Below, piece after piece: positions 2,358 through 55,312 of a stretch of 64,000 nucleotides of DNA. The stretch spans positions 49,372-113,371 of the IMG/VR virus record IMGVR_UViG_3300039008_000325. One strand, 5' to 3'. The position numbers were made by a program, and so were the translations under genes. Source of the stretch: a virus. Taxonomy: Duplodnaviria > Heunggongvirae > Uroviricota > Caudoviricetes. Every line of letters starts with the position of its first letter. The stretch's first letter is position 1. A model generated the notes under the pieces. The model was not told the DNA's origin and made no database searches. It worked only from the letters and a program-made list of their open reading frames with translations.

Positions 2358-3608
2358 TTATAAAATATCTCCTGTTGATAATGGTTTTGTTAAATATAAA
2401 CCTTCAATTGATTTACATCTTGAAAGTGCAACATACATTTGACCTGAAGAAAACATTCCACGACCTTTATCGATAATAACTTCATCTAAAGTTTTACCTT
2501 GAGATTTATGAATAGTAATAGCCCAAGCTAACTTAATTGGAAATTGAGTGAATGAACCAATTTCAATTTTTTCAATTTTATCACCATTTACTTTATAATC
2601 ATAATTAACGAATTTTTTCATTTCCACTTTAATATCTTTTCCGTTAACATCAATCTTAACATAATCATCTTCTATTTCTGTAATAGTACCTGTTGTACCA
2701 TTTACATATCTTCCATGTATATCATTAGTAATTGTCATTACTAAAGCTCCAACTTTTAATACTAATTCTTTTTCAGTTGGATATTTTCCTTCTTCAAACT
2801 TACCTTCAATATCTGCATCAAAAGTATATGAAGTACCTTTAATCATTTCTAAACGTTCTTTATTAATTTCTAACTCTTGTTTTCTATAAGGTGTTAAAGT
2901 AACAATGTCTGTTCTATTAACATCAATATGTCTTTTATTTAATTGATCTACCGTGAAATCAAGGTTCTCTTTGTCTCTGACGTTATTTAATAACTTAATA
3001 AATGAATCATCACTTTGTCTGAACACTGTATCGAATTCAACAATACTCCAATTTTCTTTATCAATTAATTTTGAATCATAGAAATAAACACCATTATATT
3101 TATTAAAATAATGTTCTTCTTCTTGTTTTGAAACAATTGGAGGTAATTGTTCTAAATCACCAACAACGATAACTCTTTTACCACCAAATTCTTTATCTGG
3201 TCTACCACATTTTTGACATGTAACATTGATAGCATCAAATACATCAGCTCTAACCATTGATATTTCATCAATGATAATTATATCAGTATTTTCAAGTAAT
3301 TGTTTTACTTTTTTACTTGGCTTAATTTGTTTTAAATTAAACATTCCAACAGGTAACTTAAAGAATGAGTGAATCGTTGATCCACCAATATTGATTGCAG
3401 CTATACCTGTAGGTGCAACTAACACGATATTCTTCGATTTATATCTCTTTAACAGTTCATTAATGAAGAATGATTTACCAGAACCAGCTTTACCTGTGAT
3501 AAATAAATTCTTTTTATCTTCTTCAATAACATCAAATGCTTGTTTAGCACCTTCAGTCATTATGAAATCTGAACTTTTAGTTTTCTTTATATTATCAAAT
3601 GTTGACAT
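2358..3608 (-). CDS. SF1 DNA helicase (Dda/RecD-like)
   Basis: Walker A ITGKAGSGKSF, Walker B IIIIDEISMV, C-terminal SF1 motifs; stop of this gene abuts start of previous ORF. Confidence 0.7.
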   Translation of the reverse strand: MSTFDNIKKTKSSDFIMTEGAKQAFDVIEEDKKNLFITGKAGSGKSFFINELLKRYKSKNIVLVAPTGIAAINIGGSTIHSFFKLPVGMFNLKQIKPSKKVKQLLENTDIIIIDEISMVRADVFDAINVTCQKCGRPDKEFGGKRVIVVGDLEQLPPIVSKQEEEHYFNKYNGVYFYDSKLIDKENWSIVEFDTVFRQSDDSFIKLLNNVRDKENLDFTVDQLNKRHIDVNRTDIVTLTPYRKQELEINKERLEMIKGTSYTFDADIEGKFEEGKYPTEKELVLKVGALVMTITNDIHGRYVNGTTGTITEIEDDYVKIDVNGKDIKVEMKKFVNYDYKVNGDKIEKIEIGSFTQFPIKLAWAITIHKSQGKTLDEVIIDKGRGMFSSGQMYVALSRCKSIEGLYLTKPLSTGDIL

Positions 3609-15082: not shown

Positions 15083-15159
15083 CGCGGGATAGAGCAGTCG
15101 GGTAGCTCAACAGGCTCATAACCTGTAGGTCGCTGGTTCAAATCCAGCTCCCGCAACCA
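15083..15159 (+). tRNA. tRNA-Met (CAU), initiator-like
   Basis: cloverleaf with anticodon loop CTCATAA and acceptor C1:A72 mismatch (bacterial initiator hallmark). Confidence 0.75.
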
Positions 15160-15214
15160 AAAGATAGTTGATTTCATTTTTAAAAGTTATATAATATAAT
15201 TATAGAGGAAATTA

Positions 15215-15267
15215 CTATTAACCTTTTATAAATAATTATACAGTAACTATTTATAAAAGGTTAATAG
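15215..15267 (+). promoter_or_regulatory. perfect 20-bp inverted repeat hairpin containing a late -10 box and sequestering the SD of the downstream HNH gene
   Basis: left arm CTATTAACCTTTTATAAATA (15215-15234), right arm TATTTATAAAAGGTTAATAG (15248-15267). TATAAATA at 15227-15234. AAGG SD lies in the right arm, ATG at 15268. Confidence 0.6.
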
Positions 15268-15942
15268 ATGAATTATAAAAGAATTTACAATGAAATCATA
15301 GAAAATAGAATAAATAATCCATTTAAAGGTTATACAGAAACACATCATATTTTACCTAGATCATTAGGTGGATCAGATGAAAAAGAAAATTTAGTTAAAT
15401 TGAGTGCTAGAGAACATTTCATATGTCACTTACTTTTAACTAAAATACATAAAGATGATACTATTGAACATTATAAGATGTTAAATGCATTTATTATGAT
15501 GAAAATGAATAGTAATACACAAGATAGATATTTTAATAGTTATTTATATGAAAAAATAAGAATAAAATACTCTAAAATGCAAAGTAAAAAACAATCTGGT
15601 AAAGGTAATAACCAGTATGGTAAAATGTGGATTACAAATGGAAAAGATAATAAATTAATTTATAGAGATAATTCAATACCGGTTGGTTGGAAAAAAGGTC
15701 GTAAATTAAAATCACCTAAAACAGATGCTCTAAATGAAAAATTTAGGAAAAGAAAACAAAAAACAGCATCTAAAAAATTACAAACAACTTTAATGTATGA
15801 AGAATATTATAAAATTTATTGTGAATATGGTTGGGAAAAATTTAAAGAAATAACCGATTATAAATTTTCTCAACAAAATTTAGTAATGCAGTTTAAACAT
15901 CGTGTTAAAGATTACACATCACAACGCGGTAGAAAAAGATAG
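15268..15942 (+). CDS. HNH homing endonuclease
   Basis: TETHHILPRSLGGSDEKENLVKLSAREHFICH His-Me finger; paralogue of 18388 (both begin MNYKR(I/L)YNEIIENR). Confidence 0.85.
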   Translation: MNYKRIYNEIIENRINNPFKGYTETHHILPRSLGGSDEKENLVKLSAREHFICHLLLTKIHKDDTIEHYKMLNAFIMMKMNSNTQDRYFNSYLYEKIRIKYSKMQSKKQSGKGNNQYGKMWITNGKDNKLIYRDNSIPVGWKKGRKLKSPKTDALNEKFRKRKQKTASKKLQTTLMYEEYYKIYCEYGWEKFKEITDYKFSQQNLVMQFKHRVKDYTSQRGRKR

Positions 15943-15943
15943 A

Positions 15944-16017
15944 GGGTTCATAATTCAATGGTAGAATAACCGACTTTTAATCGGTTTACCTAAGTTCGAT
16001 TCTTAGTGAACCCACCA
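15944..16017 (+). tRNA. tRNA-Lys (UUU)
   Basis: acceptor GGGTTCA/TGAACCC, anticodon stem ACCGA/TCGGT, loop CTTTTAA; starts 2 nt after the HNH stop. Confidence 0.75.
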
Positions 16018-16030
16018 AATATTTAATTGT

Positions 16031-16107
16031 ATACCTGTAGTTCAGATGGATAGAACAACAGATTTCTAATCTGTAGGTCATAGGTTCGAGTCCTATCAGG
16101 TATGCCA
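16031..16107 (+). tRNA. tRNA-Arg (UCU)
   Basis: acceptor ATACCTG/CAGGTAT, anticodon loop TTTCTAA, T-arm ATAGG-TTCGAGT-CCTAT. Confidence 0.8.
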
Positions 16108-16117
16108 GTTTTAAGAT

Positions 16118-16194
16118 GGTGTTTGTAGCTCAATTGGTAGAGTGTTTCCTTGTGATGGAAGATGTTGCGAGTTCGAGTCTCGTCAAACACCCCA
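16118..16194 (+). tRNA. tRNA-His (GUG)
   Basis: extra G-1, acceptor GTGTTTG/CAAACAC, discriminator C, loop TTGTGAT. Confidence 0.8.
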
Positions 16195-16205
16195 TTTTAA
16201 TTTGA

Positions 16206-16244
16206 GGACTTGTAGCTCAGGTGGTTAGAGCACTAGACTGATTT
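16206..16244 (+). pseudogene. 5' tRNA fragment (acceptor + D-arm + half anticodon arm, loop CTGATTT), truncated at promoter cassette
   Basis: GGACTTG-TA-GCTC-AGGTGGTTA-GAGC then breaks inside anticodon loop where AATTATAAATAATTATATAA begins. D-arm nearly identical to tRNA-Ile at 20688. Confidence 0.55.
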
Positions 16245-16247
16245 TAA

Positions 16248-16267
16248 AATTATAAATAATTATATAA
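16248..16267 (+). promoter_or_regulatory. late promoter cassette
   Basis: exact consensus; followed by AAGGAATATAATTATG leader shared with genes at 38941 and 53518. Confidence 0.65.
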
Positions 16268-16282
16268 TAAAGGAATATAATT

Positions 16283-16990
16283 ATGAATAATATAAAAATT
16301 GATGAATCTTGGAAACAAGAAAGTGGTAAATATAAATGCCCATATTGTGATAAGGAATATACTAAAAAAGGTATATGTACACATATATGGAGAAAACATA
16401 CAGAAGAAGGTTTAAATTTTACTAAATTACACGATCCAAATAAAGGTTTTAAAGATGGTACTAGAAAAGCTTGGAATAAAGGTTTAACTAAAGAAACTGA
16501 CACAAGGTTAGAAGAAAAAAGTATTAAGTTGCGAGAAAAATTTAATAGTGGTGAATTAGAGGGTTATTGGAAAAATAAAAAACATTCTAACTCTACAATA
16601 ATAAAGATGAAAAATAATAAAAATTGTGGAGGATATAGAAAAGGGTCAGGTAGAGGTAAATCTGGCTGGTATAAAAATTATTATTGTGATAGTAGTTGGG
16701 AATTAGCTTTTGTAATTTATAATTTAGAAAACAATATAAAATTTGAAAGAAATACTAAAAAATTTAGTTATATATTTAATAGAAAAAAACATGATTATAT
16801 GCCGGATTTTATTATCAATAACGAATATATAGAAATAAAAGGTTACATAACTGAACAATGGAAAGCTAAAAAAGAACAATTTCCACATAAGTTAAAAACA
16901 TTATATCAAAAAGATATACAAAAATATTTAGATTATGTGATTAATAAATATGGAAAAGATTTTATTAAATTATACGGCTCTCTAGCTTAG
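16283..16990 (+). CDS. putative homing endonuclease: N-terminal C2H2-like zinc finger, NUMOD3-like repeats, C-terminal PD-(D/E)xK-like domain
   Basis: CPYCDKEYTKKGICTHIWRKH; WNKGLTKETD and KHSNSTIIKM NUMOD3-like; C-terminal H.Y.PDF...IEIKG; last codons overlap tRNA-Phe. Confidence 0.5.
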   Translation: MNNIKIDESWKQESGKYKCPYCDKEYTKKGICTHIWRKHTEEGLNFTKLHDPNKGFKDGTRKAWNKGLTKETDTRLEEKSIKLREKFNSGELEGYWKNKKHSNSTIIKMKNNKNCGGYRKGSGRGKSGWYKNYYCDSSWELAFVIYNLENNIKFERNTKKFSYIFNRKKHDYMPDFIINNEYIEIKGYITEQWKAKKEQFPHKLKTLYQKDIQKYLDYVINKYGKDFIKLYGSLA

Positions 16991-17051
16991 TTGGTCTGAG
17001 CGCTCGATTGAAGCTCGAGAGGTTCTGGTTCGAATCCAGGGGGAGCCACCA
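16976..17051 (+). tRNA. tRNA-Phe (GAA)
   Basis: acceptor GGCTCTC/GGGAGCC, anticodon stem CTCGA/TCGAG, loop TTGAAGC. Confidence 0.75.
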
Positions 17052-17052
17052 A

Positions 17053-17355
17053 ATGAAAATAAAAAAATTAATACTAATATTATTCCTACTAATTAGTAAT
17101 ACGACATACGCAAGTAATTTCATATCAGATAAAGATAATAAAGTAGTAGGTGTTAAAACAGATACAATTAGGTTAGATAAAAGATTATTATATAGAGCAG
17201 AATACAACCATATGAAAGAACGTACACAAACGAGTGCTGCTTACGAGATTAATAAAAATAATTACATAATAATATACTTAATACATAGTAAAGAGAACAA
17301 TATGTTTGAAGAATTTGATGATACTATTAAGATTAGGTATAAATATAAATTTTAG
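17053..17355 (+). CDS. small secreted protein (signal peptide MKIKKLILILFLLISNTTYA)
   Basis: ORF-track call starts inside tRNA-Phe. The in-frame ATG at 17053 gives a canonical signal peptide and uses GGGGGAG of the tRNA 3' end as SD. Confidence 0.45.
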   Translation: MKIKKLILILFLLISNTTYASNFISDKDNKVVGVKTDTIRLDKRLLYRAEYNHMKERTQTSAAYEINKNNYIIIYLIHSKENNMFEEFDDTIKIRYKYKF

Positions 17356-17431
17356 GGGATGTAGCTCAGTTGATTAGAGCACTGCACTGTCACTGCAGAG
17401 GTCGCCGGTTTGAGCCCGGTCATTCCCGCCA
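17355..17431 (+). tRNA. tRNA-Asp (GUC)
   Basis: 77 nt, anticodon stem CTGCA/TGCAG, loop CTGTCAC. Confidence 0.8.
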
Positions 17432-17437
17432 GTTTAA

Positions 17438-17514
17438 GTAGGGGTAGTAGCAATTGGTTAAAACAGTTGACTCCAAATCTTCAGTTCTAGGTTCGAGTCC
17501 TAGCCCCTATGCCA
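17438..17514 (+). tRNA. tRNA-like gene with canonical acceptor and T-arm but non-canonical D/anticodon arms (identity unresolved)
   Basis: 77 nt; acceptor GTAGGGG/CCCCTAT, T-arm CTAGG-TTCGAGT-CCTAG, CCA encoded; no 5-bp anticodon stem could be drawn by hand. Confidence 0.4.
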
Positions 17515-17521
17515 AGATAAT

Positions 17522-17598
17522 GTATCTGTAGCTCAATTGGATAGAGCACTTGGCTACGAACTAAGAGGTTGTGGGTTCGAGTCCTACCAGGTATGCCA
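17522..17598 (+). tRNA. tRNA-Arg (ACG)
   Basis: anticodon stem CTTGG/CTAAG (2 GU), loop CTACGAA, T-arm GTGGG-TTCGAGT-CCTAC. Confidence 0.75.
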
Positions 17599-17630
17599 GT
17601 TAATATAAAACATTTGAAAAGGGAGATAAA

Positions 17631-17867
17631 ATGTTTTTTAAGAGTAGGAAAAGATTTAAAATAGGTACATATTACATTGATGAAAGAAGTAGATTAAGAA
17701 TACTTTGGTTAGATGAGATATGTGAGAAATCAATATTAAAGTTTAATTTTTGCAAATTTATGATGGATAATAAAATCATAACATCAAGTAGTGTAGTGTT
17801 ATTTGATAAGCAAACAAAATATACAGTAAAAGGTGATTGTATAGTAAATTATATACAATCAATATAA
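17631..17867 (+). CDS. hypothetical protein
   Basis: 78 aa, AAAGGGAGATAAAATG SD. Confidence 0.4.
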   Translation: MFFKSRKRFKIGTYYIDERSRLRILWLDEICEKSILKFNFCKFMMDNKIITSSSVVLFDKQTKYTVKGDCIVNYIQSI

Positions 17868-17872
17868 GTTGT

Positions 17873-17946
17873 TACCCCGTCGTCTAATGGTAAGACATGT
17901 GTTTTTGGTGCACATTATCGAGGTTCGAATCCTTGCGGGGTAACCA
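17873..17946 (+). tRNA. tRNA-Gln (UUG)
   Basis: acceptor TACCCCG/CGGGGTA, loop TTTTGGT. Confidence 0.75.
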
Positions 17947-17950
17947 ATTA

Positions 17951-18026
17951 GGGGCCTTAGCTCATCTGGGAGAGCGCTACATTTGCAATGTAGAGGTGGC
18001 GAGTTCGAGTCTCGCAGGCTCCACCA
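17951..18026 (+). tRNA. tRNA-Ala (UGC)
   Basis: acceptor GGGGCCT, anticodon stem CTACA/TGTAG, loop TTTGCAA. Confidence 0.8.
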
Positions 18027-18045
18027 AATTTGAAGGAGAGATAAT

Positions 18046-18291
18046 ATGGTACATCAAGCTCAATTAGTACCAAATATTAATAAAAAAGTTATTAAATTAT
18101 ATAGTCCAGATGGTGATGATGTAAATACAGTATTCTTAAGTTCAATACATGATGTAGTTGAACAACATTTAAAACATGTAGGTGATTTTTATTATGTTAA
18201 TTTTAAAAATAAAACACAAACAGAAGTAAATAAAGAATCATATGATTTAGTTAAAGAGTTATTATTTAAAGATTGTGAATACGTAAATTAA
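18046..18291 (+). CDS. hypothetical protein
   Basis: 81 aa, GAAGGAGAGATAATATG SD. Confidence 0.4.
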   Translation: MVHQAQLVPNINKKVIKLYSPDGDDVNTVFLSSIHDVVEQHLKHVGDFYYVNFKNKTQTEVNKESYDLVKELLFKDCEYVN

Positions 18292-18347
18292 GCAGGTGTA
18301 GTATAATGGCTATTATTACAGTCTTCCAAACTGAGGATAGGAGTTCG
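18292..18347 (+). pseudogene. 5' tRNA fragment (acceptor to mid T-loop, anticodon region CTTCCAAAC), truncated at promoter cassette
   Basis: GCAGGTG-TA-... AGGAGTTCG then CTAAAATTATAAATAATTATATAA; no matching 3' acceptor strand downstream. Confidence 0.45.
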
Positions 18348-18351
18348 CTAA

Positions 18352-18371
18352 AATTATAAATAATTATATAA
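18352..18371 (+). promoter_or_regulatory. late promoter cassette
   Basis: exact consensus 17 nt before ATG 18388. Confidence 0.65.
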
Positions 18372-18387
18372 TAGGAGTTATATAATT

Positions 18388-18957
18388 ATGAACTATAAAA
18401 GACTTTACAATGAAATAATAGAAAATAGAAAACAAAACCCAATTAAAGGCTATACTGAAAAACATCATATTATACCAAGAAGCCTAAATGGAACTGATGA
18501 GAAAGAAAACTTAGTTAATCTAACAGCTAGAGAACATTTCATTTGCCATTATTTACTAACTAAAATGTATGATAAAAGAACAAACAATCATTATAAATTA
18601 GTTTGTGCATTTAATATGATGAATATGAGTGGAGAATATCACACAAGGTATTTTAACAGTTATTTATATGAAGCAAATAAAATACAATTTTCTAAATTAC
18701 AAAGTAAAAACCAAAAAGGTCAAAAAAATTCTCAATTTGGTAAAATGTGGATTACTAATGGAAAAGATAATAAAAAAATTCGAAAAGATGAAATTATTCC
18801 TGAAGGTTTTAGAAAGGGTAGGGTCATACCTAAAGAAATAAAAGAAAAAATAAGAAAATCTATGAAAGGTGTTGGTGTTGGTCGTGTTCGAAGTGATAAA
18901 ACAAAAGCAAAAATAAGTCGAACATTGAAATTGAGACACAGATCAATAAATTTATAG
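18388..18957 (+). CDS. HNH homing endonuclease
   Basis: TEKHHIIPRSLNGTDEKENLVNLTAREHFICH; stop overlaps first nt of tRNA-Ser. Confidence 0.85.
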   Translation: MNYKRLYNEIIENRKQNPIKGYTEKHHIIPRSLNGTDEKENLVNLTAREHFICHYLLTKMYDKRTNNHYKLVCAFNMMNMSGEYHTRYFNSYLYEANKIQFSKLQSKNQKGQKNSQFGKMWITNGKDNKKIRKDEIIPEGFRKGRVIPKEIKEKIRKSMKGVGVGRVRSDKTKAKISRTLKLRHRSINL

Positions 18958-19044
18958 GAGCGATGTCTGAGTGGTTTAAGGTGCTTCCCTGCTAAGGAAG
19001 TGTAGTGAAAGCTACCGCAGGTTCGAATCCTGCTCGTTCCGCCA
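18957..19044 (+). tRNA. tRNA-Ser (GCU)
   Basis: type II tRNA, long variable arm, anticodon stem CTTCC/GGAAG, loop CTGCTAA. Confidence 0.75.
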
Positions 19045-19046
19045 TT

Positions 19047-19120
19047 GAGCTATTGTCCGAGTAGTTAGGTGATAGTCTGCAAAACTATTTACATTGGTGC
19101 AAATCCAATATAGCTCTCCA
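19047..19120 (+). tRNA. tRNA-Cys (GCA)
   Basis: acceptor GAGCTAT/ATAGCTC, stem ATAGT/ACTAT, loop CTGCAAA. Confidence 0.75.
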
Positions 19121-19137
19121 TAATTTAATACAGTTTA

Positions 19138-19225
19138 GCTGGGGTGGTGGAATTGGTATACACGCTAGTCTTAGGAACTAGTTTTCAGAAATGATTTATG
19201 GGTTCGAATCCCATCTCCAGCACCA
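19138..19225 (+). tRNA. tRNA-Leu (UAG)
   Basis: type II, anticodon stem CTAGT/ACTAG, loop CTTAGGA. Confidence 0.75.
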
Positions 19226-19277
19226 TAAACTATTGTTGAATTATGATAAAATTACATTTAAAATGTTAATACATTTA

Positions 19278-19362
19278 GGAAGAGAGGCGAGTGGTTAGCA
19301 AGTGCACTTGAAATGCATCAGAGGTCAAACTCCTGCAGGTTCGAATCCTGTCTCTTCCGCCA
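19278..19362 (+). tRNA. tRNA-Ser (UGA)
   Basis: type II, GGAAGAG... loop CTTGAAA, T-arm CAGG-TTCGAAT-CCTG. Confidence 0.75.
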
Positions 19363-19382
19363 TTATTTTAAGGAGAGTTAAA

Positions 19383-19757
19383 ATGAAAAAAAGATTAGGT
19401 TTCGTAAGTAATAGTTCAAGTAGTTCATTTGTAGTTTGGGGTATTCAATTAGATACTTGTGAAGATAAACTAAAAGAAAAATGTACTGAACAATTGTTCA
19501 AAAGATTATATGATGAACAAGAAGAATATATAAAAGAAGATTTAGTTGAAGAATTATATGATTGGACTGAAGATGATGGATTAGTTGCTAATGATGATGA
19601 ATCAGGCTATATCCAAATAGGTTTATATGCTGAAAAAATGAAAGATGATGAGACATTAAAACAATATAAAGAAAAAGTTCTTCAAAAATTAATAGAAAAA
19701 GGTATAAAAGCTAAATATGAAGATATCCATTGGATAGAAGAAGTTTCATATTGCTAA
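19383..19757 (+). CDS. small acidic protein, MKKRLGFVSNSSSSSF family member 1
   Basis: AAGGAGAGTTAAAATG SD immediately after tRNA-Ser. ORF-track N-terminal extension would overlap the tRNA. C-terminus rich in D/E. Confidence 0.6.
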   Translation: MKKRLGFVSNSSSSSFVVWGIQLDTCEDKLKEKCTEQLFKRLYDEQEEYIKEDLVEELYDWTEDDGLVANDDESGYIQIGLYAEKMKDDETLKQYKEKVLQKLIEKGIKAKYEDIHWIEEVSYC

Positions 19758-19759
19758 CA

Positions 19760-19836
19760 GGGGCATTAGCTCAGCTGGTTAGAGCGGTACGCTCATAACG
19801 TATAGGTCCCTGGTTCGAATCCAGGATGCCCCACCA
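19760..19836 (+). tRNA. tRNA with CAU anticodon (elongator Met or Ile2-lysidine type)
   Basis: acceptor GGGGCAT, loop CTCATAA. Confidence 0.7.
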
Positions 19837-19842
19837 AGTTAT

Positions 19843-19919
19843 GGTACTTTAGCTCAGTTGGTTAGAGCATTCGCTTCATACGTGAAAGGTCGTTGGTTCG
19901 AATCCAACAAGTACCACCA
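19843..19919 (+). tRNA. tRNA with CAU anticodon (second copy, Met/Ile2)
   Basis: acceptor GGTACTT/AAGTACC, loop TTCATAC. Confidence 0.7.
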
Positions 19920-19938
19920 TTTTAAAAGGAGAGTTAAA

Positions 19939-20364
19939 ATGAAAAAAAGATTAGGTTTTGTGAGCAATAGTAGCTCAAGTAGCTTTATTATAGGTATTGC
20001 TAAAGTTAAAGATAGAAAAAAATTAGAAGAAAAATATTCTGACATACTTAGTTGTTTAGATATTAGAACTATTCAATCTTTCGTTGATGAAAAATGGGGT
20101 GGTCTTTATGAACAAAGTGATAGATATATGCATGAATCATTTGACGGTACTGAAGTAACTATATCTAAAGATAATATTAATAAAGATGATCTTGTATTAG
20201 TGGTTGATGATTATGAAGATATTTACCCTGAAGATGATGATTGGGATATAGATTATGATAAAGATTATTATCATCCATATGAAGATAGAATTGATGAATT
20301 ATTATCAGATGATGAAGTAGTTGAACACGGTGAATTTGCTAAAGGTGCTGGTTACAACGGATAG
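19939..20364 (+). CDS. small acidic protein, MKKRLGFVSNSSSSSF family member 2
   Basis: identical SD-ATG context AAGGAGAGTTAAAATG; N-terminal 16 aa identical to member 1; C-terminus DDYEDIYPEDDDWDIDYDKDYYHPYEDRIDELLSDDE. Confidence 0.6.
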   Translation: MKKRLGFVSNSSSSSFIIGIAKVKDRKKLEEKYSDILSCLDIRTIQSFVDEKWGGLYEQSDRYMHESFDGTEVTISKDNINKDDLVLVVDDYEDIYPEDDDWDIDYDKDYYHPYEDRIDELLSDDEVVEHGEFAKGAGYNG

Positions 20365-20374
20365 GAGAGAAGTT

Positions 20375-20680
20375 ATGAAAAAAAGAAACGGTTTTGTAAG
20401 TAATAGTTCAAGTAGTAGTTTTATTTTATTTTTAGATAAAAATGAAAAGACTAAAAATAAACCACAATTCGATGGAGCACATCATTATATCTGGGAAAAA
20501 GATGATGATGGTAACTTTGAATGTGATAGTCAATACTATGTAGATATTAGAAATAAAATATCTAAAGCAAAAGAAGATAATAAACTTGTAATTGAATTTG
20601 AAACAGAAATGAATTCAGATTATGAAACAAGAGAATTATTAGACTTATTAGGTGTTGAATACATCTCATTAGATAATTAA
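20375..20680 (+). CDS. small acidic protein, MKKRLGFVSNSSSSSF family member 3
   Basis: MKKRNGFVSNSSSSSF, GGAGAGAAGTTATG SD, 4 nt after member 2 stop region. Confidence 0.55.
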   Translation: MKKRNGFVSNSSSSSFILFLDKNEKTKNKPQFDGAHHYIWEKDDDGNFECDSQYYVDIRNKISKAKEDNKLVIEFETEMNSDYETRELLDLLGVEYISLDN

Positions 20681-20687
20681 AGTTAAA

Positions 20688-20763
20688 GTCTATTAGCTCA
20701 GTTGGTTAGAGCGTACGTCTGATACACGTGAGGTCCCAAGTTCGAATCTTGGATAGACTACCA
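20688..20763 (+). tRNA. tRNA-Ile (GAU)
   Basis: acceptor GTCTATT/GGATAGAC, loop CTGATAC. Confidence 0.75.
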
Positions 20764-20770
20764 AAAATAT

Positions 20771-20857
20771 GCGTCGGTGGCTGAGCGGTCAAAGGCACCG
20801 GACTGTAAATCCGGCGGGATTATCCCTACCTAGGTTCGAATCCTAGCTGGCGCACCA
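20771..20857 (+). tRNA. tRNA-Tyr (GUA)
   Basis: type II, anticodon stem CCGGA/TCCGG, loop CTGTAAA. Confidence 0.75.
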
Positions 20858-37675: not shown

Positions 37676-38461
37676 ATGTATTATATAATTTACAAAATTA
37701 CTAACAGTTTAAATGATAAATTTTATATAGGTCAACATAGAACAAATAATTTAGAAGATGGTTATATGGGAAGTGGTTTATATATTAAAAATGCAAAGAA
37801 TAAATATAAAGAAGAATTTATTAAAATATTCAAAAAAGAAATATTAGAATATTGTGATAATTTTGATGATATGCAAATAAAAGAGGAATATTATATTAAA
37901 AATGAATATGATAATCCTCTTTGCACTAATATAAGATATGGTGGAAGTCAATCAATACATAGTGAAAAAACTAAAGAAAAGTTAAGTGAGTCACATAAGG
38001 GTAAAAAACTATCTAATGAACACAAAAATAAAATTCGTCAAGCTAATTTAGGTAAAGTTTTATCTCAAGAAACAAAAGATAAAATATCAAATTCTAAAAA
38101 ATTAAACATGACAGATGATATTAGAAAAAAGATATCAAAAGCAAGTAAAAATAGAAAAGTTTCACAAGAAACAAAAGATAAAATATCAAAAGCTAATAAA
38201 GGTAGAATTTTAGGTTCTCCATCTGAAAATACTAGGAAAAAGATATCAGATGCAACAAAAGGAAAACTTGTAAGTCAAGCCACTAAAGAAAAAATCAGTA
38301 TAGCTAGAAAAGGTTTAAAAAGATTAGATAGCACTAAATTAAAAATTTCAGAAAAACTTAAAAATAAATCAATTGAAATACATAAATGTCCTCATTGTGG
38401 TAAAGAAGGTAAAGGTCCAATTATGTTTAGATTTCATTTCCATAATTGTAAGAAGAAATAA
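37676..38461 (+). CDS. GIY-YIG homing endonuclease with NUMOD3 repeats
   Basis: YIIYKITNSLNDKFYIGQ...GYMGSG; five S..TK.KIS NUMOD3-like repeats; C-terminal CPHCG...HNC zinc finger. Confidence 0.8.
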   Translation: MYYIIYKITNSLNDKFYIGQHRTNNLEDGYMGSGLYIKNAKNKYKEEFIKIFKKEILEYCDNFDDMQIKEEYYIKNEYDNPLCTNIRYGGSQSIHSEKTKEKLSESHKGKKLSNEHKNKIRQANLGKVLSQETKDKISNSKKLNMTDDIRKKISKASKNRKVSQETKDKISKANKGRILGSPSENTRKKISDATKGKLVSQATKEKISIARKGLKRLDSTKLKISEKLKNKSIEIHKCPHCGKEGKGPIMFRFHFHNCKKK

Positions 38462-45405: not shown

Positions 45406-46149
45406 TTAACCTTCATATCTATTACCTTTAATGAGATTTTCTTCAGCCCATAAAGGTTGTAAATTATTTAATGACCAGCACTCTTTTAGTTCTTCTTCAT
45501 TCTCACAACTAAACCAACTTTTAGGTTTAATATGATCAATATGCCAATCTCCATAATTGTTCCAAGACATACCAGGTCGAAATTGTTTTTCTAAATGTTG
45601 TTTTAAATCATCTATTGTATATCCAAACAATTTGAGATATTTAGATGTGGTTTTTGTTTTATTAATCGTTCGATTAAGTGTGGTTGAGATAATATGATTT
45701 AATTTATAATTAATATTTTCATTATATCTTTTATTTTGATATATCTTATTATAATTTTTTAATTTTTCCTTATTTTTCAATTTATATTGCTTTTGATATT
45801 CTCGAATCTTATTTCTTTTTAATTCTTTATATTCTTTAGAGTTTAATAGTTTCTGTTTTTCTAACTTTGCTAATAACTTTACTTCATCTTTAGCTTGTTG
45901 TTTTATAATTTTAAGTTGTTGTTTTTGATTTCTCGCTACTTCAGTTTTTAATAGGTATTTTTGCTGATATTTATTACGATTCTTTAAATAGTAATTTTTA
46001 GCTCGCTCTTTGTTATTTGTGTAGTAATTACTCTCACACAATTTACAACTATACTGATAACCATCTCCACTCGTTTTATTTTTATGAAACTCGTTTATAT
46101 TTTTTACTTCTTTACATTTAGTACATTTTTTATAAATAATTATAGACAT
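45406..46149 (-). CDS. HNH endonuclease with N-terminal zinc finger
   Basis: CTKC...CKLC N-terminus; GDWHIDHIKPKS...NLQPLWAEENLIKGN His-Me finger; paralogue of 54731 (both begin MSIIIYKK). Confidence 0.8.
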   Translation of the reverse strand: MSIIIYKKCTKCKEVKNINEFHKNKTSGDGYQYSCKLCESNYYTNNKERAKNYYLKNRNKYQQKYLLKTEVARNQKQQLKIIKQQAKDEVKLLAKLEKQKLLNSKEYKELKRNKIREYQKQYKLKNKEKLKNYNKIYQNKRYNENINYKLNHIISTTLNRTINKTKTTSKYLKLFGYTIDDLKQHLEKQFRPGMSWNNYGDWHIDHIKPKSWFSCENEEELKECWSLNNLQPLWAEENLIKGNRYEG

Positions 46150-46216
46150 TGATTAACTCCTTACGTTAATTTTTGTTTAGAATGGTATAAGTGTTGGTGC
46201 ATTTATACCTTTCGCT

Positions 46217-46236
46217 TTATATAATTATTTATAATT
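46217..46236 (-). promoter_or_regulatory. late promoter cassette on minus strand (drives HNH gene 45406-46149)
   Basis: TTATATAATTATTTATAATT is exact reverse complement of the consensus. Confidence 0.6.
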
Positions 46237-46247
46237 TCCAAGAACAT

Positions 46248-53517: not shown

Positions 53518-54195
53518 ATGAAAAGACAATATAAATATTTTTATATATATAAAATAACAAATCTAATAACAAATAAAATATACATAGGTCAAAAAAGATC
53601 TTTTAAACACCCTTCTTGTGACGGGTATATGGGAAGTGGTAAATGTTTAAAAAATTCTATAAATAAACATGGTATTGAACATTTTAAAAAAGATATTTTA
53701 GAAGAATTCGATAATGAATCACTTTTAAATGAAAGAGAAATATATTGGATTGATAAACTAGATGCTACTGATATTAATATAGGTTATAATATATCTAGAG
53801 GTGGTATAGGTGGAACTGGACACAAAGGTTGTAAACATTCTAAAGAATCCAGAGATAAAATGTCTAAAAAATTAAAAGGTAGAACTGCATGGAATAAAGG
53901 TAAAAAATTACCACCTATGTCTGATGAACAAAAAGAAAAAAGAAGAATAAAAGCTCAAGGTAAAAAACATTATCATAATCCATTAACATTAGAGCAAAAA
54001 TGTTTAATACCAGGAACACAACCAATTGGTTGGATTTTAGGTATGAATCCAAAATCAGTTGAAAAGAGAAGACAAACAGTATTACAAGAAAAAACATATA
54101 AGGGAAATAAACACCCTATGTATGGTAAAAAACACACTGAGCAATCTAAGAAAAAAATGTCTCTTTCTTCAAGAAAAATGGCTACAGGGAAGTAA
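53518..54195 (+). CDS. GIY-YIG homing endonuclease
   Basis: YFYIYKITNLITNKIYIGQ...GYMGSG; NUMOD3-like HSKESRDKMS. Confidence 0.8.
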   Translation: MKRQYKYFYIYKITNLITNKIYIGQKRSFKHPSCDGYMGSGKCLKNSINKHGIEHFKKDILEEFDNESLLNEREIYWIDKLDATDINIGYNISRGGIGGTGHKGCKHSKESRDKMSKKLKGRTAWNKGKKLPPMSDEQKEKRRIKAQGKKHYHNPLTLEQKCLIPGTQPIGWILGMNPKSVEKRRQTVLQEKTYKGNKHPMYGKKHTEQSKKKMSLSSRKMATGK

Positions 54196-54583: not shown

Positions 54584-54643
54584 AACTTATCCTTCTAATC
54601 TTTCTTATATTATAGTATATTTTTCAACTATCATCAACTAAAA

Positions 54644-54663
54644 AATTATAAATAATTATATAA
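54644..54663 (+). promoter_or_regulatory. late promoter cassette followed by hairpin 54670-54697
   Basis: exact consensus; downstream AGATATAAATG-CGCTAA-CATTTATATCT stem-loop then AAGAAGGA SD. Confidence 0.6.
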
Positions 54664-54730
54664 AGCGAAAGATATAAATGCGCTAACATTTATATCTCTC
54701 TAACATCAATTAATAAGAAGGATTAATCGA

Positions 54731-55312
54731 ATGTCTATAATTATTTATAAAAAAGTGTGTACTAAATGCTCACTCGAAAAGAATATTAATGAATTTTATA
54801 AGGATAGTAGTAAATATGATGGCTATGCTTGTGCTTGTAAAGAATGTTGTATTAAACATCGTAATAAATACCGTAAAGAAAATAAATCTAAAATTAAAGA
54901 ATATTATCAAAATTATTACAAATCTAATAACTATAGTAAAGAATATTATAGGTTAAATAAAGATAAAATCAAGCAATATTATAAACATAAATATCACAAT
55001 AATATCAATAAGAGATTACATCATATTATTTCCGTAACATTAAATAATATGATAAACAAGAAATATGACACATCCAAATATTTAAAATTATTTGGATATA
55101 CGATAGAAGAGTTAAAGACTCATTTAGAAAAGAAATTTAAAGAGAATATGTCATGGGACAATTATGGAGAATGGCATATTGACCACATTAAACCTAAGAG
55201 TTGGTTTAGTGTTGACAGTGAACAAGAATTAAAAAAGTGTTGGAGTTTAGATAACTTACAACCTCTATGGGCTGATGAAAATTGGTCAAAAGGAAATAGA
55301 TATAAAGGATAA
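54731..55312 (+). CDS. HNH endonuclease with N-terminal zinc finger
   Basis: CTKCSLEK...CACKECC; GEWHIDHIKPKS...NLQPLWADENWSKGN. Confidence 0.8.
   Translation: MSIIIYKKVCTKCSLEKNINEFYKDSSKYDGYACACKECCIKHRNKYRKENKSKIKEYYQNYYKSNNYSKEYYRLNKDKIKQYYKHKYHNNINKRLHHIISVTLNNMINKKYDTSKYLKLFGYTIEELKTHLEKKFKENMSWDNYGEWHIDHIKPKSWFSVDSEQELKKCWSLDNLQPLWADENWSKGNRYKG

What the first reader, a model, noticed from the sequence alone, without database searches (positions are those of the whole stretch)
18292..18388. Second tRNA stump + promoter + HNH insertion
A 56-nt tRNA-like 5' segment (GCAGGTG-TA-...-AGGAGTTCG) ends in the T-loop, directly fused to CTAAAATTATAAATAATTATATAA and the HNH gene at 18388. It is recorded separately because the breakpoint is in the T-loop rather than the anticodon loop as at 16244. 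That implies independent insertion events rather than one duplicated block.
Basis: seen in the sequence. Interest (0 to 1): 0.5.

Follow-up and report, generated by a model that had tools for sequence, protein, structure and literature searches.

The report
Homing endonuclease gene splitting a phage tRNA
A selfish nuclease gene with its own late promoter starts exactly where a phage glycine-tRNA gene breaks off in its T-loop; related nuclease genes in at least eight other phage loci sit at the same break point, which suggests a family of mobile genes that invade tRNA T-loops.

Summary
Window 18292-18347 is the 5' 56 nt (positions 1-57) of a tRNA-Gly(UCC) gene. It scores 28.6 bits (E 7e-5) when 3' truncation is allowed, and its best database hits are annotated tRNA-Gly genes. 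It breaks after T-loop G57. Two bases later comes a 24-nt box, then a Mob-like HNH homing-endonuclease gene (18388-18957). No 3' remainder exists in the window.

One correction: the shared 24-mer is not an element end. It is this T4-like phage's general late promoter (TATAAATA core), with 19 copies that also precede portal, tube, sheath, baseplate, protease and terminase genes.

No relative with an empty site exists, because the phage is an orphan. Homologues give the context instead. Among 103 related HNH genes, every genuine T-loop-broken 5' tRNA stump (7 by a structural scan, plus L157 by nhmmer) lies 12-41 nt upstream of an HNH start codon. The stumps are of different isotypes, and the break is always at position 56-59. 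In L180 and L127 the 3' remainder survives downstream, and joining the halves restores valid tRNAs.

Best reading: a late-promoter HNH cassette homed into the T-loop, and its right side was later lost. This is a new variant of SegB-type, tRNA-directed homing.

The parts
18046..18291 (+). Upstream 81-aa ORF of unknown function. Its TAA stop is immediately followed by G1 of the stump. This is the native left context of the former tRNA gene.
   Evidence: ORF list; sequence. No Pfam or PHROG hit. The other ORFs checked in the cluster likewise end within about -15 to +6 nt of the next tRNA.
18292..18347 (+). tRNA-Gly(UCC) 5' stump, tRNA positions 1-57: 5' acceptor strand, D-arm, anticodon arm (anticodon TCC), variable loop, 5' T-stem strand AGGAG, and T-loop TTCG. 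It lacks T-loop 58-60, the 3' T-stem strand, the 3' acceptor strand and CCA.
   Evidence: Rfam tRNA 28.6 bits, E 7.4e-5, model 1-55/71, 3'-truncated. nhmmer profile 4-57, E 0.0023. Best hits are annotated tRNA-Gly. Alignment A1. Isotype cross-check. No 3' partner in the window.
18348..18349 (+). Two-base linker (CT) between the T-loop break and the promoter box.
   Evidence: sequence upstream of the promoter box is not conserved among the copies.
18350..18373 (+). Phage-wide late-promoter box AAAATTATAAATAATTATATAATA, with the T4-type core TATAAATA at 18355-18362. It forms the left end of the HNH cassette.
   Evidence: 19 copies with at most 3 mismatches against 0.04 expected, 18 on the + strand. 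The copies lie 19-76 nt upstream of start codons of late structural genes and HEGs. DNA homology between the two HNH paralogues starts at this box (15226/18354).
18360..18389 (+). A 13-bp all-A/U hairpin with the RBS (GGAG, 18374-18377) in its loop and the AUG at its 3' edge. It is a possible translational occlusion of read-through transcripts. It is weak and not statistically distinctive.
   Evidence: MFE and centroid structures (z = -0.99 for the whole 126 nt). The much stronger analogue upstream of the paralogue is at 15215-15267 (z = -5.7).
18388..18957 (+). Freestanding Mob-like HNH homing-endonuclease gene, 189 aa. The catalytic HH...N...H core is intact. The C-terminus has one NUMOD3-like repeat and is about 40-65 aa shorter than its closest relatives.
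   Evidence: Pfam PF01844 and PHROG 655. 36-37% identity over the full length to T-even phage proteins annotated MobD/MobE/homing endonuclease. 63% identity to the paralogue at 15268-15942. Invariant H26, H27, H50, H54 and near-invariant N41. C-terminal comparison.
18957..19044 (+). Intact tRNA-Ser(GCU). Its first base is the G of the HNH stop codon TAG. This is the right boundary of the cassette.
   Evidence: ARAGORN, Rfam 50.7 bits, sequence.

Best explanation
Window 18292-18347 is a dead 5' fragment of a phage tRNA-Gly(UCC) gene. A freestanding Mob-like HNH homing-endonuclease cassette (T4-type late promoter, RBS, ORF) is joined to it between T-loop nucleotides 57 and 58.

Proposed mechanism (the steps are inferred unless marked otherwise):
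1. Enzymes of this HNH lineage act on tRNA genes, as the GIY-YIG enzyme SegB is known to do. SegB recognises GGTTCRANTCC, the DNA that encodes the T-arm.
2. A break in or near the T-loop of a recipient tRNA gene is repaired from a cassette-bearing donor. The join forms at the universally conserved GGTTCR, so the left junction always falls at position 57/58, whatever the isotype.
3. The insertion splits the target site, so the carrier allele is immune to cutting, and it kills that tRNA gene.
4. In this phage the right-hand side has since been lost. Both the tRNA 3' remainder and the last 40-65 codons of the HNH gene are missing, and the ORF now ends on G1 of tRNA-Ser.

Expression: the cassette is transcribed from the phage's own late promoter. 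Read-through transcripts from the terminator-free tRNA cluster would carry the stump as an unprocessable leader. RNase P cleavage at tRNA-Ser would cut inside the stop codon, as proposed for T4 segB and tRNA-Arg.

Shown here: the stump, the break position, the promoter's identity, the HNH family, the recurrence of the junction, and split tRNAs in relatives. Inferred: the enzyme's target, the repair pathway, the later deletion, and the RNA processing.
For: Identity and break point of the stump.

The promoter is the general late promoter.

The protein is a Mob-like HNH.

Recurrence of the junction:
- 103 homologous HNH ORFs were surveyed in 98 loci. A structural scan found 7 genuine 5' stumps that end at T-loop TTCR, all 12-41 nt upstream of an HNH ATG: Phe, Glu, Gln, Met, Gly, Arg and Val.
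- The 18 other 'broken' hits in 541 kb are noise or misregistered intact tRNAs. This was checked directly for the nine weakest and judged from pairing scores for the rest.
- About 0.16 chance hits are expected in the roughly 6 kb directly upstream of the ATGs.
- Sequence-only nhmmer independently ends these hits at profile position 56-59 and adds L157.
- Each stump's best matches among 1064 intact tRNAs include its own isotype, usually at the very top.

Direct evidence of insertion in relatives:
- L180: 5' part 1851-1906 plus 3' remainder 2616-2635, which lies 10 nt after the HNH stop, give an ARAGORN tRNA-Val(GAC).
- L127: 2404-2459 plus the remainder starting at 3286 give tRNA-Glu(UUC). A mismatched control join fails. 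The remainder is preceded by another tRNA-like 5' part that ends in GGTTCA.

The stump-associated HNH proteins are only 30-59% identical to one another, so these are not one clone.

HNH2 lacks the C-terminal 40-65 aa of its nearest relatives.

Precedent for T-arm DNA as a HEG target, for RBS occlusion, and for tRNA processing that cuts at the stop codon: PMC2330249. SegB cleavage motif RAWTSGAAC and its association with tRNAs: PMC13096335.
Against: - No HEG-less allele of this phage exists, so the polarity (insertion against deletion) at this locus is inferred only from homologues.
- The window has no 3' remainder and no chimeric downstream tRNA, so an extra deletion or a conversion step has to be assumed.
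- Not all stumps next to this family break at 57/58. L036 breaks at about position 38, L144 at about 43, and L170 at 53.
- Most family members are not next to tRNAs (75 of 103), or they follow an intact tRNA (11).
- Detection is biased towards long stumps.
- No biochemical data exist for any member of this subgroup.
Confidence: 0.7

Rival explanations
1. The stump is not a relic of a resident tRNA-Gly. It arrived together with the HNH cassette as co-converted donor flank, so the mobile block was stump plus promoter plus HNH. The block landed upstream of tRNA-Ser, and the phage may never have had its own tRNA-Gly here.
For: In Vibrio phage SRILMA, which carries the closest annotated homologue (48.5% identity), comparison with the HEG-less phage phiKT1024 shows that the indel (L036 2438-3179) comprises a tRNA-Thr 5' stump, TATAAATA and the HNH gene. 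It is flanked by a 5-nt TGCCC repeat and inserted exactly at the 5' edge of a different, intact tRNA-Thr. In L131a, L135 and L036 the stump and the downstream intact tRNA share an isotype but are diverged in sequence.
Against: In the window the stump starts immediately after the stop codon of the upstream ORF, the same tight packing seen for the resident tRNAs of the cluster. The Vibrio case would look the same, however. The downstream tRNA here is Ser, not Gly. This rival changes the history but not the nature of the element.
Confidence: 0.25
2. The HNH cassette was originally intergenic, in the commoner arrangement: intact tRNA, then a 23-141 nt gap up to the HNH start that contains TATAAATA. 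A later small deletion unrelated to any nuclease removed the last 19 nt or so of tRNA-Gly and the spacer.
For: Eleven of 103 homologues have an intact tRNA ending within 150 nt upstream. Examples are L022, L026 and L126. The paralogue HNH1 in the window follows an intact tRNA-Met by 108 nt.
Against: Random deletions would not end at T-loop position 56-59 in nine independent loci of different isotypes. They would not leave both halves flanking the cassette as in L180 and L127. No genuine T-loop stump was found anywhere else in 541 kb.
Confidence: 0.12
3. The stump is a functional RNA element rather than debris. It could be half of a split tRNA whose partner lies elsewhere, an intron-interrupted tRNA, a tRNA-like 5' leader that controls HNH expression, or a decoy for an anticodon nuclease.
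For: The retained part shows no decay. Its D-arm is identical to that of an intact T4-like phage tRNA-Gly. In L180 and L127 the two halves keep 12/12 complementary positions. A relative, L003, has a true group I intron in the tRNA adjoining its HNH gene.
Against: There is no 3' partner in the 64-kb window, even allowing mismatches. No group I or other intron model matches in the window. The non-coding sequence beside the ORF (40 nt upstream, 0 nt downstream) is far too short for a ribozyme. The late promoter fires downstream of the stump. The fold of the region is not distinctive (z = -0.99). GGA and GGG make up only 23% of Gly codons, so loss of this tRNA is tolerable.
Confidence: 0.05
4. Chance resemblance or assembly artefact.
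For: None beyond the failure of the standard tRNA finders.
Against: E 7e-5, E 4e-7 to annotated tRNA-Gly genes, and the only two partial hits in 128 kb of searched strand. The DNA is 100% identical on contigs from three independent samples.
Confidence: 0.01

Closest known systems
Phage T4/T6 SegB (GIY-YIG freestanding homing endonuclease in the tRNA gene cluster; PMC2330249, PMC13096335)
   Same: It is a freestanding HEG embedded in a T4-like phage tRNA cluster. Its documented target is the DNA encoding the T-arm (GGTTCRANTCC; cleavage motif RAWTSGAAC), the region where the break lies here. Its ORF abuts the next tRNA, so tRNA maturation would cut at the stop codon. Its RBS is occluded by a hairpin. 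It has NUMOD3-type DNA-binding repeats. It is statistically associated with tRNAs across phages.
   Different: SegB has a GIY-YIG catalytic domain, not HNH. It sits between intact tRNA genes and is not reported to be inserted inside a T-loop or to leave 5' stumps or split tRNAs. SegB is transcribed from a middle promoter upstream of the cluster, whereas this cassette carries its own late promoter.
T4 Mob class of freestanding HNH endonucleases (MobA-E; MobE characterised in PMC2790892)
   Same: The sequence family matches: 36-37% identity over the full length to proteins annotated MobD/MobE. Both have an N-terminal HNH core, are freestanding, and have a late-type promoter close to the ATG.
   Different: T4 mob genes lie between protein-coding genes (for example nrdA and nrdB) and target protein-coding neighbours. 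No tRNA T-loop junction is described for them. HNH2 carries a NUMOD3-like tail instead of the Mob zinc finger and is C-terminally short.
Phage T5 F-TflI / F-TflII / F-TflIV (HNH endonucleases encoded in the T5 tRNA region; mentioned in PMC2330249)
   Same: They are HNH-type endonuclease ORFs located inside a phage tRNA gene cluster, with expression thought to be limited by tRNA processing of the primary transcript.
   Different: They come from a different phage group. Homology to HNH2 was not tested here. No truncated or split tRNA at their 5' ends is reported in the texts I could read.
Group I intron-interrupted tRNA genes with or without HEGs (for example PMC13011429; also L003 here)
   Same: A tRNA gene is interrupted by an intervening sequence that can carry a homing endonuclease.
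   Different: Known insertion sites are in the anticodon loop, and the intron is a ribozyme of 200 nt or more that restores the tRNA. Here the break is in the T-loop, no ribozyme model matches, and no 3' exon exists.
tRNA pseudogenes in T4-like phage genomes (PMC1524935)
   Same: tRNA pseudogenes have been noted in T4-like tRNA clusters.
   Different: They were only counted by tRNAscan-SE. They were not linked to a defined break point or to an adjoining HEG.

Membership tests
tRNA gene (Rfam RF00005), functional | Complete cloverleaf: 7-bp acceptor stem and 5-bp T-stem closed by a 3' strand | tested here: not met
   Only model positions 1-55/71 are present. No complementary 3' strand lies within the window. 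ARAGORN and the Rfam gathering scan do not call it. It is therefore a pseudogene or fragment, not a tRNA gene.
tRNA gene (Rfam RF00005), by descent | Sequence and structure of the D-arm, anticodon arm and T-arm 5' half typical of one isotype | tested here: met
   28.6 bits, E 7.4e-5 in truncated mode. 82% identity to an annotated tRNA-Gly. The six best matches among 1064 tRNAs are all Gly-UCC.
HNH (beta-beta-alpha-Me) endonuclease | HNH motif with catalytic His, Asn and metal-binding His | tested here: met
   Pfam PF01844 23.9 bits against a cut-off of 21.4. H26, H27, H50 and H54 are invariant and N41 is at least 90% conserved in alignment A2. Motif-level matches to the HNH domains of IscB and McrA in the PDB.
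T4 Mob-class freestanding homing endonuclease | Full-length sequence homology to Mob proteins | tested here: met
   tblastn gives 901 phage records. T-even hits annotated MobD, MobE or homing endonuclease show 36-37% identity over residues 1-183, E 1e-19. PHROG 655, E 2e-46. The names are the depositors' annotations.
T4 Mob-class freestanding homing endonuclease | Freestanding: own expression signals, not inside an intron or intein | tested here: met
   Late-promoter box and RBS lie 13-38 nt upstream. No intron model matches in the window.
T4 Mob-class freestanding homing endonuclease | C-terminal DNA-binding module (a zinc finger in Mob proteins) | tested here: inconclusive
   There are no Cys clusters. 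One NUMOD3-like repeat (SDKTKAKISRTL) aligns with repeats in L127, L002, L131a and L135. The protein ends 40-65 aa before its relatives do. No Pfam hit for the tail.
T4 Mob-class freestanding homing endonuclease | Site-specific cleavage of a HEG-less allele, and homing | not testable with these tools
   This needs biochemistry or mixed infections. No HEG-less allele of this phage is available.
SegB-like tRNA-directed homing endonuclease | GIY-YIG catalytic domain | tested here: not met
   The domain is HNH, not GIY-YIG. The element is therefore an analogue of SegB, not a member of its family.
SegB-like tRNA-directed homing endonuclease | Location in phage tRNA clusters and association with tRNA genes | tested here: met
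   Window. 28 of 103 homologues lie within 300 nt of a same-strand tRNA. For 18 of them the next tRNA starts within 20 nt after the stop or overlaps it.
SegB-like tRNA-directed homing endonuclease | Recognition or cleavage of T-arm-encoding DNA | not testable with these tools
   The support is indirect only: nine junctions at T-loop position 56-59.
T4-type late promoter | TATAAATA core at a fixed short distance upstream of late (structural) genes, with strand bias | tested here: met
   Dependence on a gp55-type sigma factor was not tested.
Group I intron in a tRNA gene | Ribozyme core between two exons that join into a tRNA | tested here: not met
   No RF00028 hit in the window. There is no 3' exon. 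As a positive control, the same library finds the intron in L003 at 75.9 bits.

The most novel reading that the evidence does not exclude
The T-loop-inserted HNH cassette may be a previously unrecognised kind of tRNA intervening sequence. Where both pieces survive (L180 tRNA-Val, L127 tRNA-Glu; 12/12 complementary T-stem and acceptor positions), the 5' piece (1-57) and the 3' piece (58-76) might still be used. They could be joined by a phage RNA repair or ligase system, or assembled as a two-piece tRNA. In that case invasion by the endonuclease gene would not kill the tRNA, and the window's stump would be the decayed end state of such a split gene.
Probability: 0.06. Interest if true: 0.85.

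Novelty: new variant of a known kind. Interest (0 to 1): 0.5.

Why it matters
Phage tRNA clusters are now known to serve as counter-defence against tRNA-cleaving immune systems, and SegB has been shown to remodel them. If a widespread lineage of Mob-like HNH genes homes into the universally conserved T-loop, several things follow:
- It would be a second, convergent class of tRNA-directed selfish elements.
- It would be a source of tRNA gene loss, chimeric tRNAs and cluster shuffling in large phages.
- It would explain tRNA 'pseudogenes' that annotation pipelines either ignore or miscall.
- It gives a precise, testable target prediction: cleavage at or near position 57/58 of tRNA genes.
- It offers a simple marker (5' stump, TATAAATA, HNH) for finding such events.

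For this phage specifically, it explains why no tRNA-Gly is present among the 18 tRNAs of the cluster.

Tried and rejected
1. Syntenic comparison with relatives was impossible.
   - megablast of 14.7-21 kb found only short tRNA matches.
   - The upstream ORF and the tail sheath have no relatives in IMG/VR.
   - The next-best sheath among 5.8 billion proteins is 38% identical.
   - The ten contigs that carry the locus are 100% identical.
2. An exact or degenerate pattern scan for an uninterrupted allele of this tRNA-Gly failed. There were 0 hits in IMG/VR. There were 88 hits in metagenomes, but the best is only 43/56 identical, so these are unrelated tRNA-Gly genes.
3. A search for the 3' half in the window found nothing.
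4. The intron hypothesis was rejected.
5. The idea that the shared 24-mer marks a common mobile element was rejected. It is the general late promoter.
6. The idea that HEG ORFs abutting the next tRNA is a HEG-specific junction was rejected. The non-HEG ORFs checked in the cluster do the same.
7. An empty-site search for the L180 tRNA-Val in IMG/VR gave 0 hits.
8. The PDB and NCBIfam gave only motif-level HNH matches.
9. Literature searches for T-loop or split-tRNA HEG insertions found no description. Subscription journals are not covered.
10. The first nhmmer screen missed the L002 stump, so a structure-based scan was written and calibrated.
Full report
**Context.** The window (26.6% G+C) comes from a T4-like myovirus. 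It encodes gp15-, tube- and sheath-like proteins, NrdG/NrdD, portal, prohead protease and TerL. Between the tail sheath gene and nrdG lies a tRNA cluster (15083-20857) with 18 intact tRNAs, all on the + strand. None is for Gly, Thr, Asn, Pro, Glu or Val. The cluster has no terminator-like site after 14707. The phage is an orphan. The same DNA occurs 100% identical on contigs from three samples. The next closest tail sheath among 5.8 billion proteins is only 38% identical, and nothing related is in GenBank phages or IMG/VR.

**The observation.** 18292-18347 reads as acceptor 5' strand, D-arm, anticodon arm (CTTCCAA, anticodon UCC), variable loop GGAT, 5' T-stem strand AGGAG, and TTCG. It is followed by CT and an A/T-rich box.
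- Standard finders miss it, and embedded in context it scores 11.8 bits.
- When the search stretch ends at 18347, so that a 3'-truncated alignment is allowed, Rfam tRNA gives 28.6 bits, E 7.4e-5, model positions 1-55.
- A profile of 196 phage tRNAs run over both strands of the window finds the 18 intact genes plus exactly two partial hits: this one (profile 4-57) and 16209-16241 (profile 4-35).
- The best blastn hits are annotated tRNA-Gly genes (82% identity over all 56 nt), and the alignment departs from them right after GAGTTCG.
- It is not a copy of any intact tRNA in the window.
- No 3' T-stem plus acceptor strand exists in the window.

The stump begins directly after the stop codon of the upstream ORF, the same tight packing seen for intact tRNAs of the cluster.

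**The promoter.** The 24-mer AAAATTATAAATAATTATATAATA has 19 copies with at most 3 mismatches (0.04 expected), 18 of them on the + strand. Its core, TATAAATAATTATA, lies 19-76 nt upstream of start codons. The downstream genes include portal, two tail-tube paralogues, sheath, baseplate wedge, prohead protease and TerL, and also five HEG-like genes. It contains the T4 late-promoter core TATAAATA (established knowledge). It is therefore the phage's general late promoter. Its presence at both 16246 and 18350 says nothing about a shared mobile block.

**The gene.** ORF 18388-18957 passes Pfam HNH and PHROG 655 'homing endonuclease'. It is 36-37% identical over its whole length to T-even proteins annotated MobD, MobE or homing endonuclease, and it keeps the catalytic residues. 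A paralogue (15268-15942, 63% identity) follows the intact tRNA-Met. DNA homology between the two copies (76%) starts exactly at the promoter box, so promoter plus ORF is the repeated unit. The ORF next to the other stump (16283-16990) is an unrelated zinc-finger/endonuclease-I-like protein. That stump breaks in the anticodon loop (17.9 bits, model 1-36).

**Evidence from homologues.** No empty-site allele exists, so I examined the family instead.

The closest annotated homologue (48.5% identity) is in Vibrio phage SRILMA.
- It is preceded by a tRNA-Thr 5' stump (18.9 bits, model 1-37) and TATAAATA, and it runs into a different, intact tRNA-Thr.
- The HEG-less relative phiKT1024 has the flank joined directly to that tRNA.
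- The indel is therefore stump plus promoter plus HNH, flanked by a 5-nt repeat.

I then collected 103 homologous HNH ORFs in 98 loci.
- I scanned them with a structure-based detector: A14 (and U8 unless both stems pair perfectly), D-stem, anticodon stem, U33 and R37, T-stem plus TTCR.
- In calibration it recovered 11 intact tRNAs of the window plus the stump, with about 2-4 false hits per 64 kb.
- It found seven 5' stumps ending at T-loop TTCR, each 12-41 nt upstream of an HNH ATG: L002 Phe, L127 Glu, L131 Gln and Met (two HNH copies), L135 Gly, L137 Arg and L180 Val.
- In the whole 541 kb, the 18 other 'broken' hits are noise inside coding sequence or misregistered intact tRNAs. The nine weakest were inspected directly, and the rest were judged from their pairing scores.
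- About 0.16 chance hits are expected in the roughly 6 kb directly upstream of the ATGs.
- Sequence-only nhmmer independently ends the same hits at profile position 56-59. It adds L157 (position 58) and three stumps broken elsewhere: L170 at 53, L144 at about 43, and L036 at about 38.
- Each stump's best matches among 1064 intact tRNAs include its own isotype, usually at the top.
- The associated proteins are only 30-59% identical to one another, so this is not one recent clone.
- TATAAATA, or a near variant of it, follows most of these breaks within 0-20 nt. In L135 it starts at the very next base.

**Direct evidence of insertion.**
- In L180, the 3' remainder GTC-CCAGC-AGCGGGT-ACCA lies 10 nt after the HNH stop. 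Joining 1851-1906 to 2616-2635 gives an ARAGORN tRNA-Val(GAC). This is a clean 709-nt insertion between T-loop nucleotides 57 and 58.
- In L127, joining 2404-2459 to the remainder at 3286 onwards gives tRNA-Glu(UUC), and a mismatched control join fails. The remainder is immediately preceded by another tRNA-like 5' part that ends in GGTTCA. The inserted block is therefore bounded by T-loops on both sides.

**Mechanism.**

Shown:
- The cassette (late promoter, RBS, HNH) is joined to tRNA position 57 in nine loci of eight isotypes, counting the window.
- Two of these are bona fide split genes.

Established elsewhere:
- SegB, a GIY-YIG HEG of T4/T6 tRNA clusters, recognises the T-arm DNA GGTTCRANTCC, cuts within tRNA genes, and drives recombination there (PMC2330249, PMC13096335).

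Inferred:
- This HNH lineage likewise acts on T-arm DNA.
- Repair from a cassette-bearing donor joins at the universal GGTTCR, which would explain why the junction is the same in any isotype.
- The insertion splits the target and so immunises the carrier.

In the window there is no 3' remainder, and HNH2 ends after one NUMOD3-like repeat, 40-65 aa short of L127, L002, L131a and L135. The simplest account is a later deletion, or a conversion tract, running from the HNH 3' end to the 5' edge of tRNA-Ser. The HNH2 protein may therefore be crippled.

Expression is also inferred.
- Late transcripts would start about 6 nt after TATAAATA (near 18368). That lies inside the 5' arm of a weak A/U hairpin holding the RBS and AUG.
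- The paralogue has a strong version of this hairpin (z = -5.7), the classical T4 arrangement for I-TevI-III and Aeh1 MobE.
- The stop codon TAG shares its G with tRNA-Ser G1, so RNase P processing would remove the stop. The same has been proposed for segB and tRNA-Arg.

**Rivals.**
- Imported stump. The stump may have been imported with the cassette rather than being resident, as in the Vibrio precedent. This changes the history, not the nature of the element.
- Unrelated deletion. A deletion unrelated to the nuclease is unlikely given the recurrent break point and the split genes.
- Functional element. A functional split, intron-like or leader RNA is not supported: there is no partner, no ribozyme, and an unremarkable fold. 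It is not excluded for L180 and L127.
- Chance or artefact. Both are excluded.

**Comparison and novelty.** HEGs in phage tRNA clusters (SegB, T5 F-TflI/II/IV), T-arm DNA as a HEG target, late-promoter and hairpin control, and tRNA pseudogenes in T4-like phages (PMC1524935) are all known. I could not find any description of Mob-like HNH cassettes physically inserted at T-loop 57/58 and leaving 5' stumps, split tRNA genes or chimeric tRNA genes in many phage lineages. The library lacks most subscription journals. I therefore rate this locus a new variant of a known kind. As a single locus it is a decayed example. The family-wide pattern it led to is the interesting part. Loss of tRNA-Gly(UCC) is plausible here, because GGA and GGG make up only 23% of Gly codons.

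Noticed in passing
window 16206-16243 and 16283-16990: This is the first tRNA stump (Rfam tRNA model 1-36, 17.9 bits, E 0.047). It breaks in the anticodon loop. The same late-promoter box follows, then a zinc-finger/endonuclease-I-like ORF that runs 15 nt into tRNA-Phe. The nuclease family differs from that of the HNH cassette. Whether this family also shows recurrent stump junctions was not surveyed.
   Followed up: partly
window 15215-15267: A 20-bp hairpin lies upstream of the HNH paralogue (region z = -5.7). TATAAATA is in its 5' arm, and the RBS is in its 3' arm, which ends just before the AUG. This is the T4-style arrangement that blocks translation of read-through transcripts while late transcripts stay translatable. 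Similar TATAAATA-in-hairpin leaders occur in L023, L010-L012 and L026.
   Followed up: partly
window 18337-18345 and 18371-18379: The 9-nt direct repeat ATAGGAGTT flanks the promoter box: once as the stump's T-stem and T-loop start, and once as the HNH RBS. There are only 4 copies in the 64 kb. It may be chance, or it may be microhomology used in forming the junction.
   Followed up: no
window 15942-20687 (tRNA cluster): The ORFs checked in the cluster, HEG or not, end within about -15 to +6 nt of the 5' end of the next tRNA. The HNH2 stop codon shares its last base with tRNA-Ser G1. RNase P processing would therefore define, or even truncate, the mRNA 3' ends.
   Followed up: partly
window about 19383-19757, about 19939-20364, about 20372-20680: Three paralogous small ORFs between tRNA genes share the N-terminal motif MKKR(L/N)GFVSNSSSSSF. 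Their function is unknown.
   Followed up: no
window 37676-38461 and 53518-54195: Two further HEG-like genes (PHROG 314/7168, GIY-YIG type) each lie behind a copy of the same late-promoter box. The window therefore carries at least five HEG-like genes in 64 kb.
   Followed up: no
window 46116-46240 (+) and 54640-54765 (-): A repeat of about 125 nt (alignment mean column identity 81%) is present in inverted orientation 8.5 kb apart. Each copy contains two convergent late-promoter boxes about 90 nt apart. One copy lies just upstream of TerL. It could be a small antisense RNA pair or a regulatory or recombination cassette.
   Followed up: no
L003 6463-6777 and 6925-6955: A Mob-like HNH ORF (41% identity) ends inside the 5' exon of a tRNA interrupted by a group I intron (Rfam RF00028, 75.9 bits). 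Downstream, the T-arm plus acceptor 3' end of tRNA-Leu is duplicated as an orphan 3' fragment.
   Followed up: partly
L131 4320-4400; L002 6696-6769: The tRNA-like genes immediately downstream of two stump-associated HNH genes have non-canonical T-loops: GGAAGTA in a tRNA-Met-like gene of L131, and TTAGATT (C56 to A) in the tRNA-Gly of L002. They may be cleavage-resistant alleles carried by the cassette. Other cases have canonical T-loops.
   Followed up: no
L002 5972-5987; L137 2473-2487: The linkers between the stump and TATAAATA contain a second (A)AGTTCG motif. This may be the remnant of an earlier T-loop junction carried along by the cassette.
   Followed up: no
L131 1747-2671; L135 102-948; L036 2434-3252: In three loci the stump and the intact tRNA directly downstream of the HNH gene have the same anticodon (Gln-CUG, Gly-UCC, Thr-UGU) but clearly different sequences. 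It looks as if the cassette brings its own copy of the tRNA it disrupts.
   Followed up: partly
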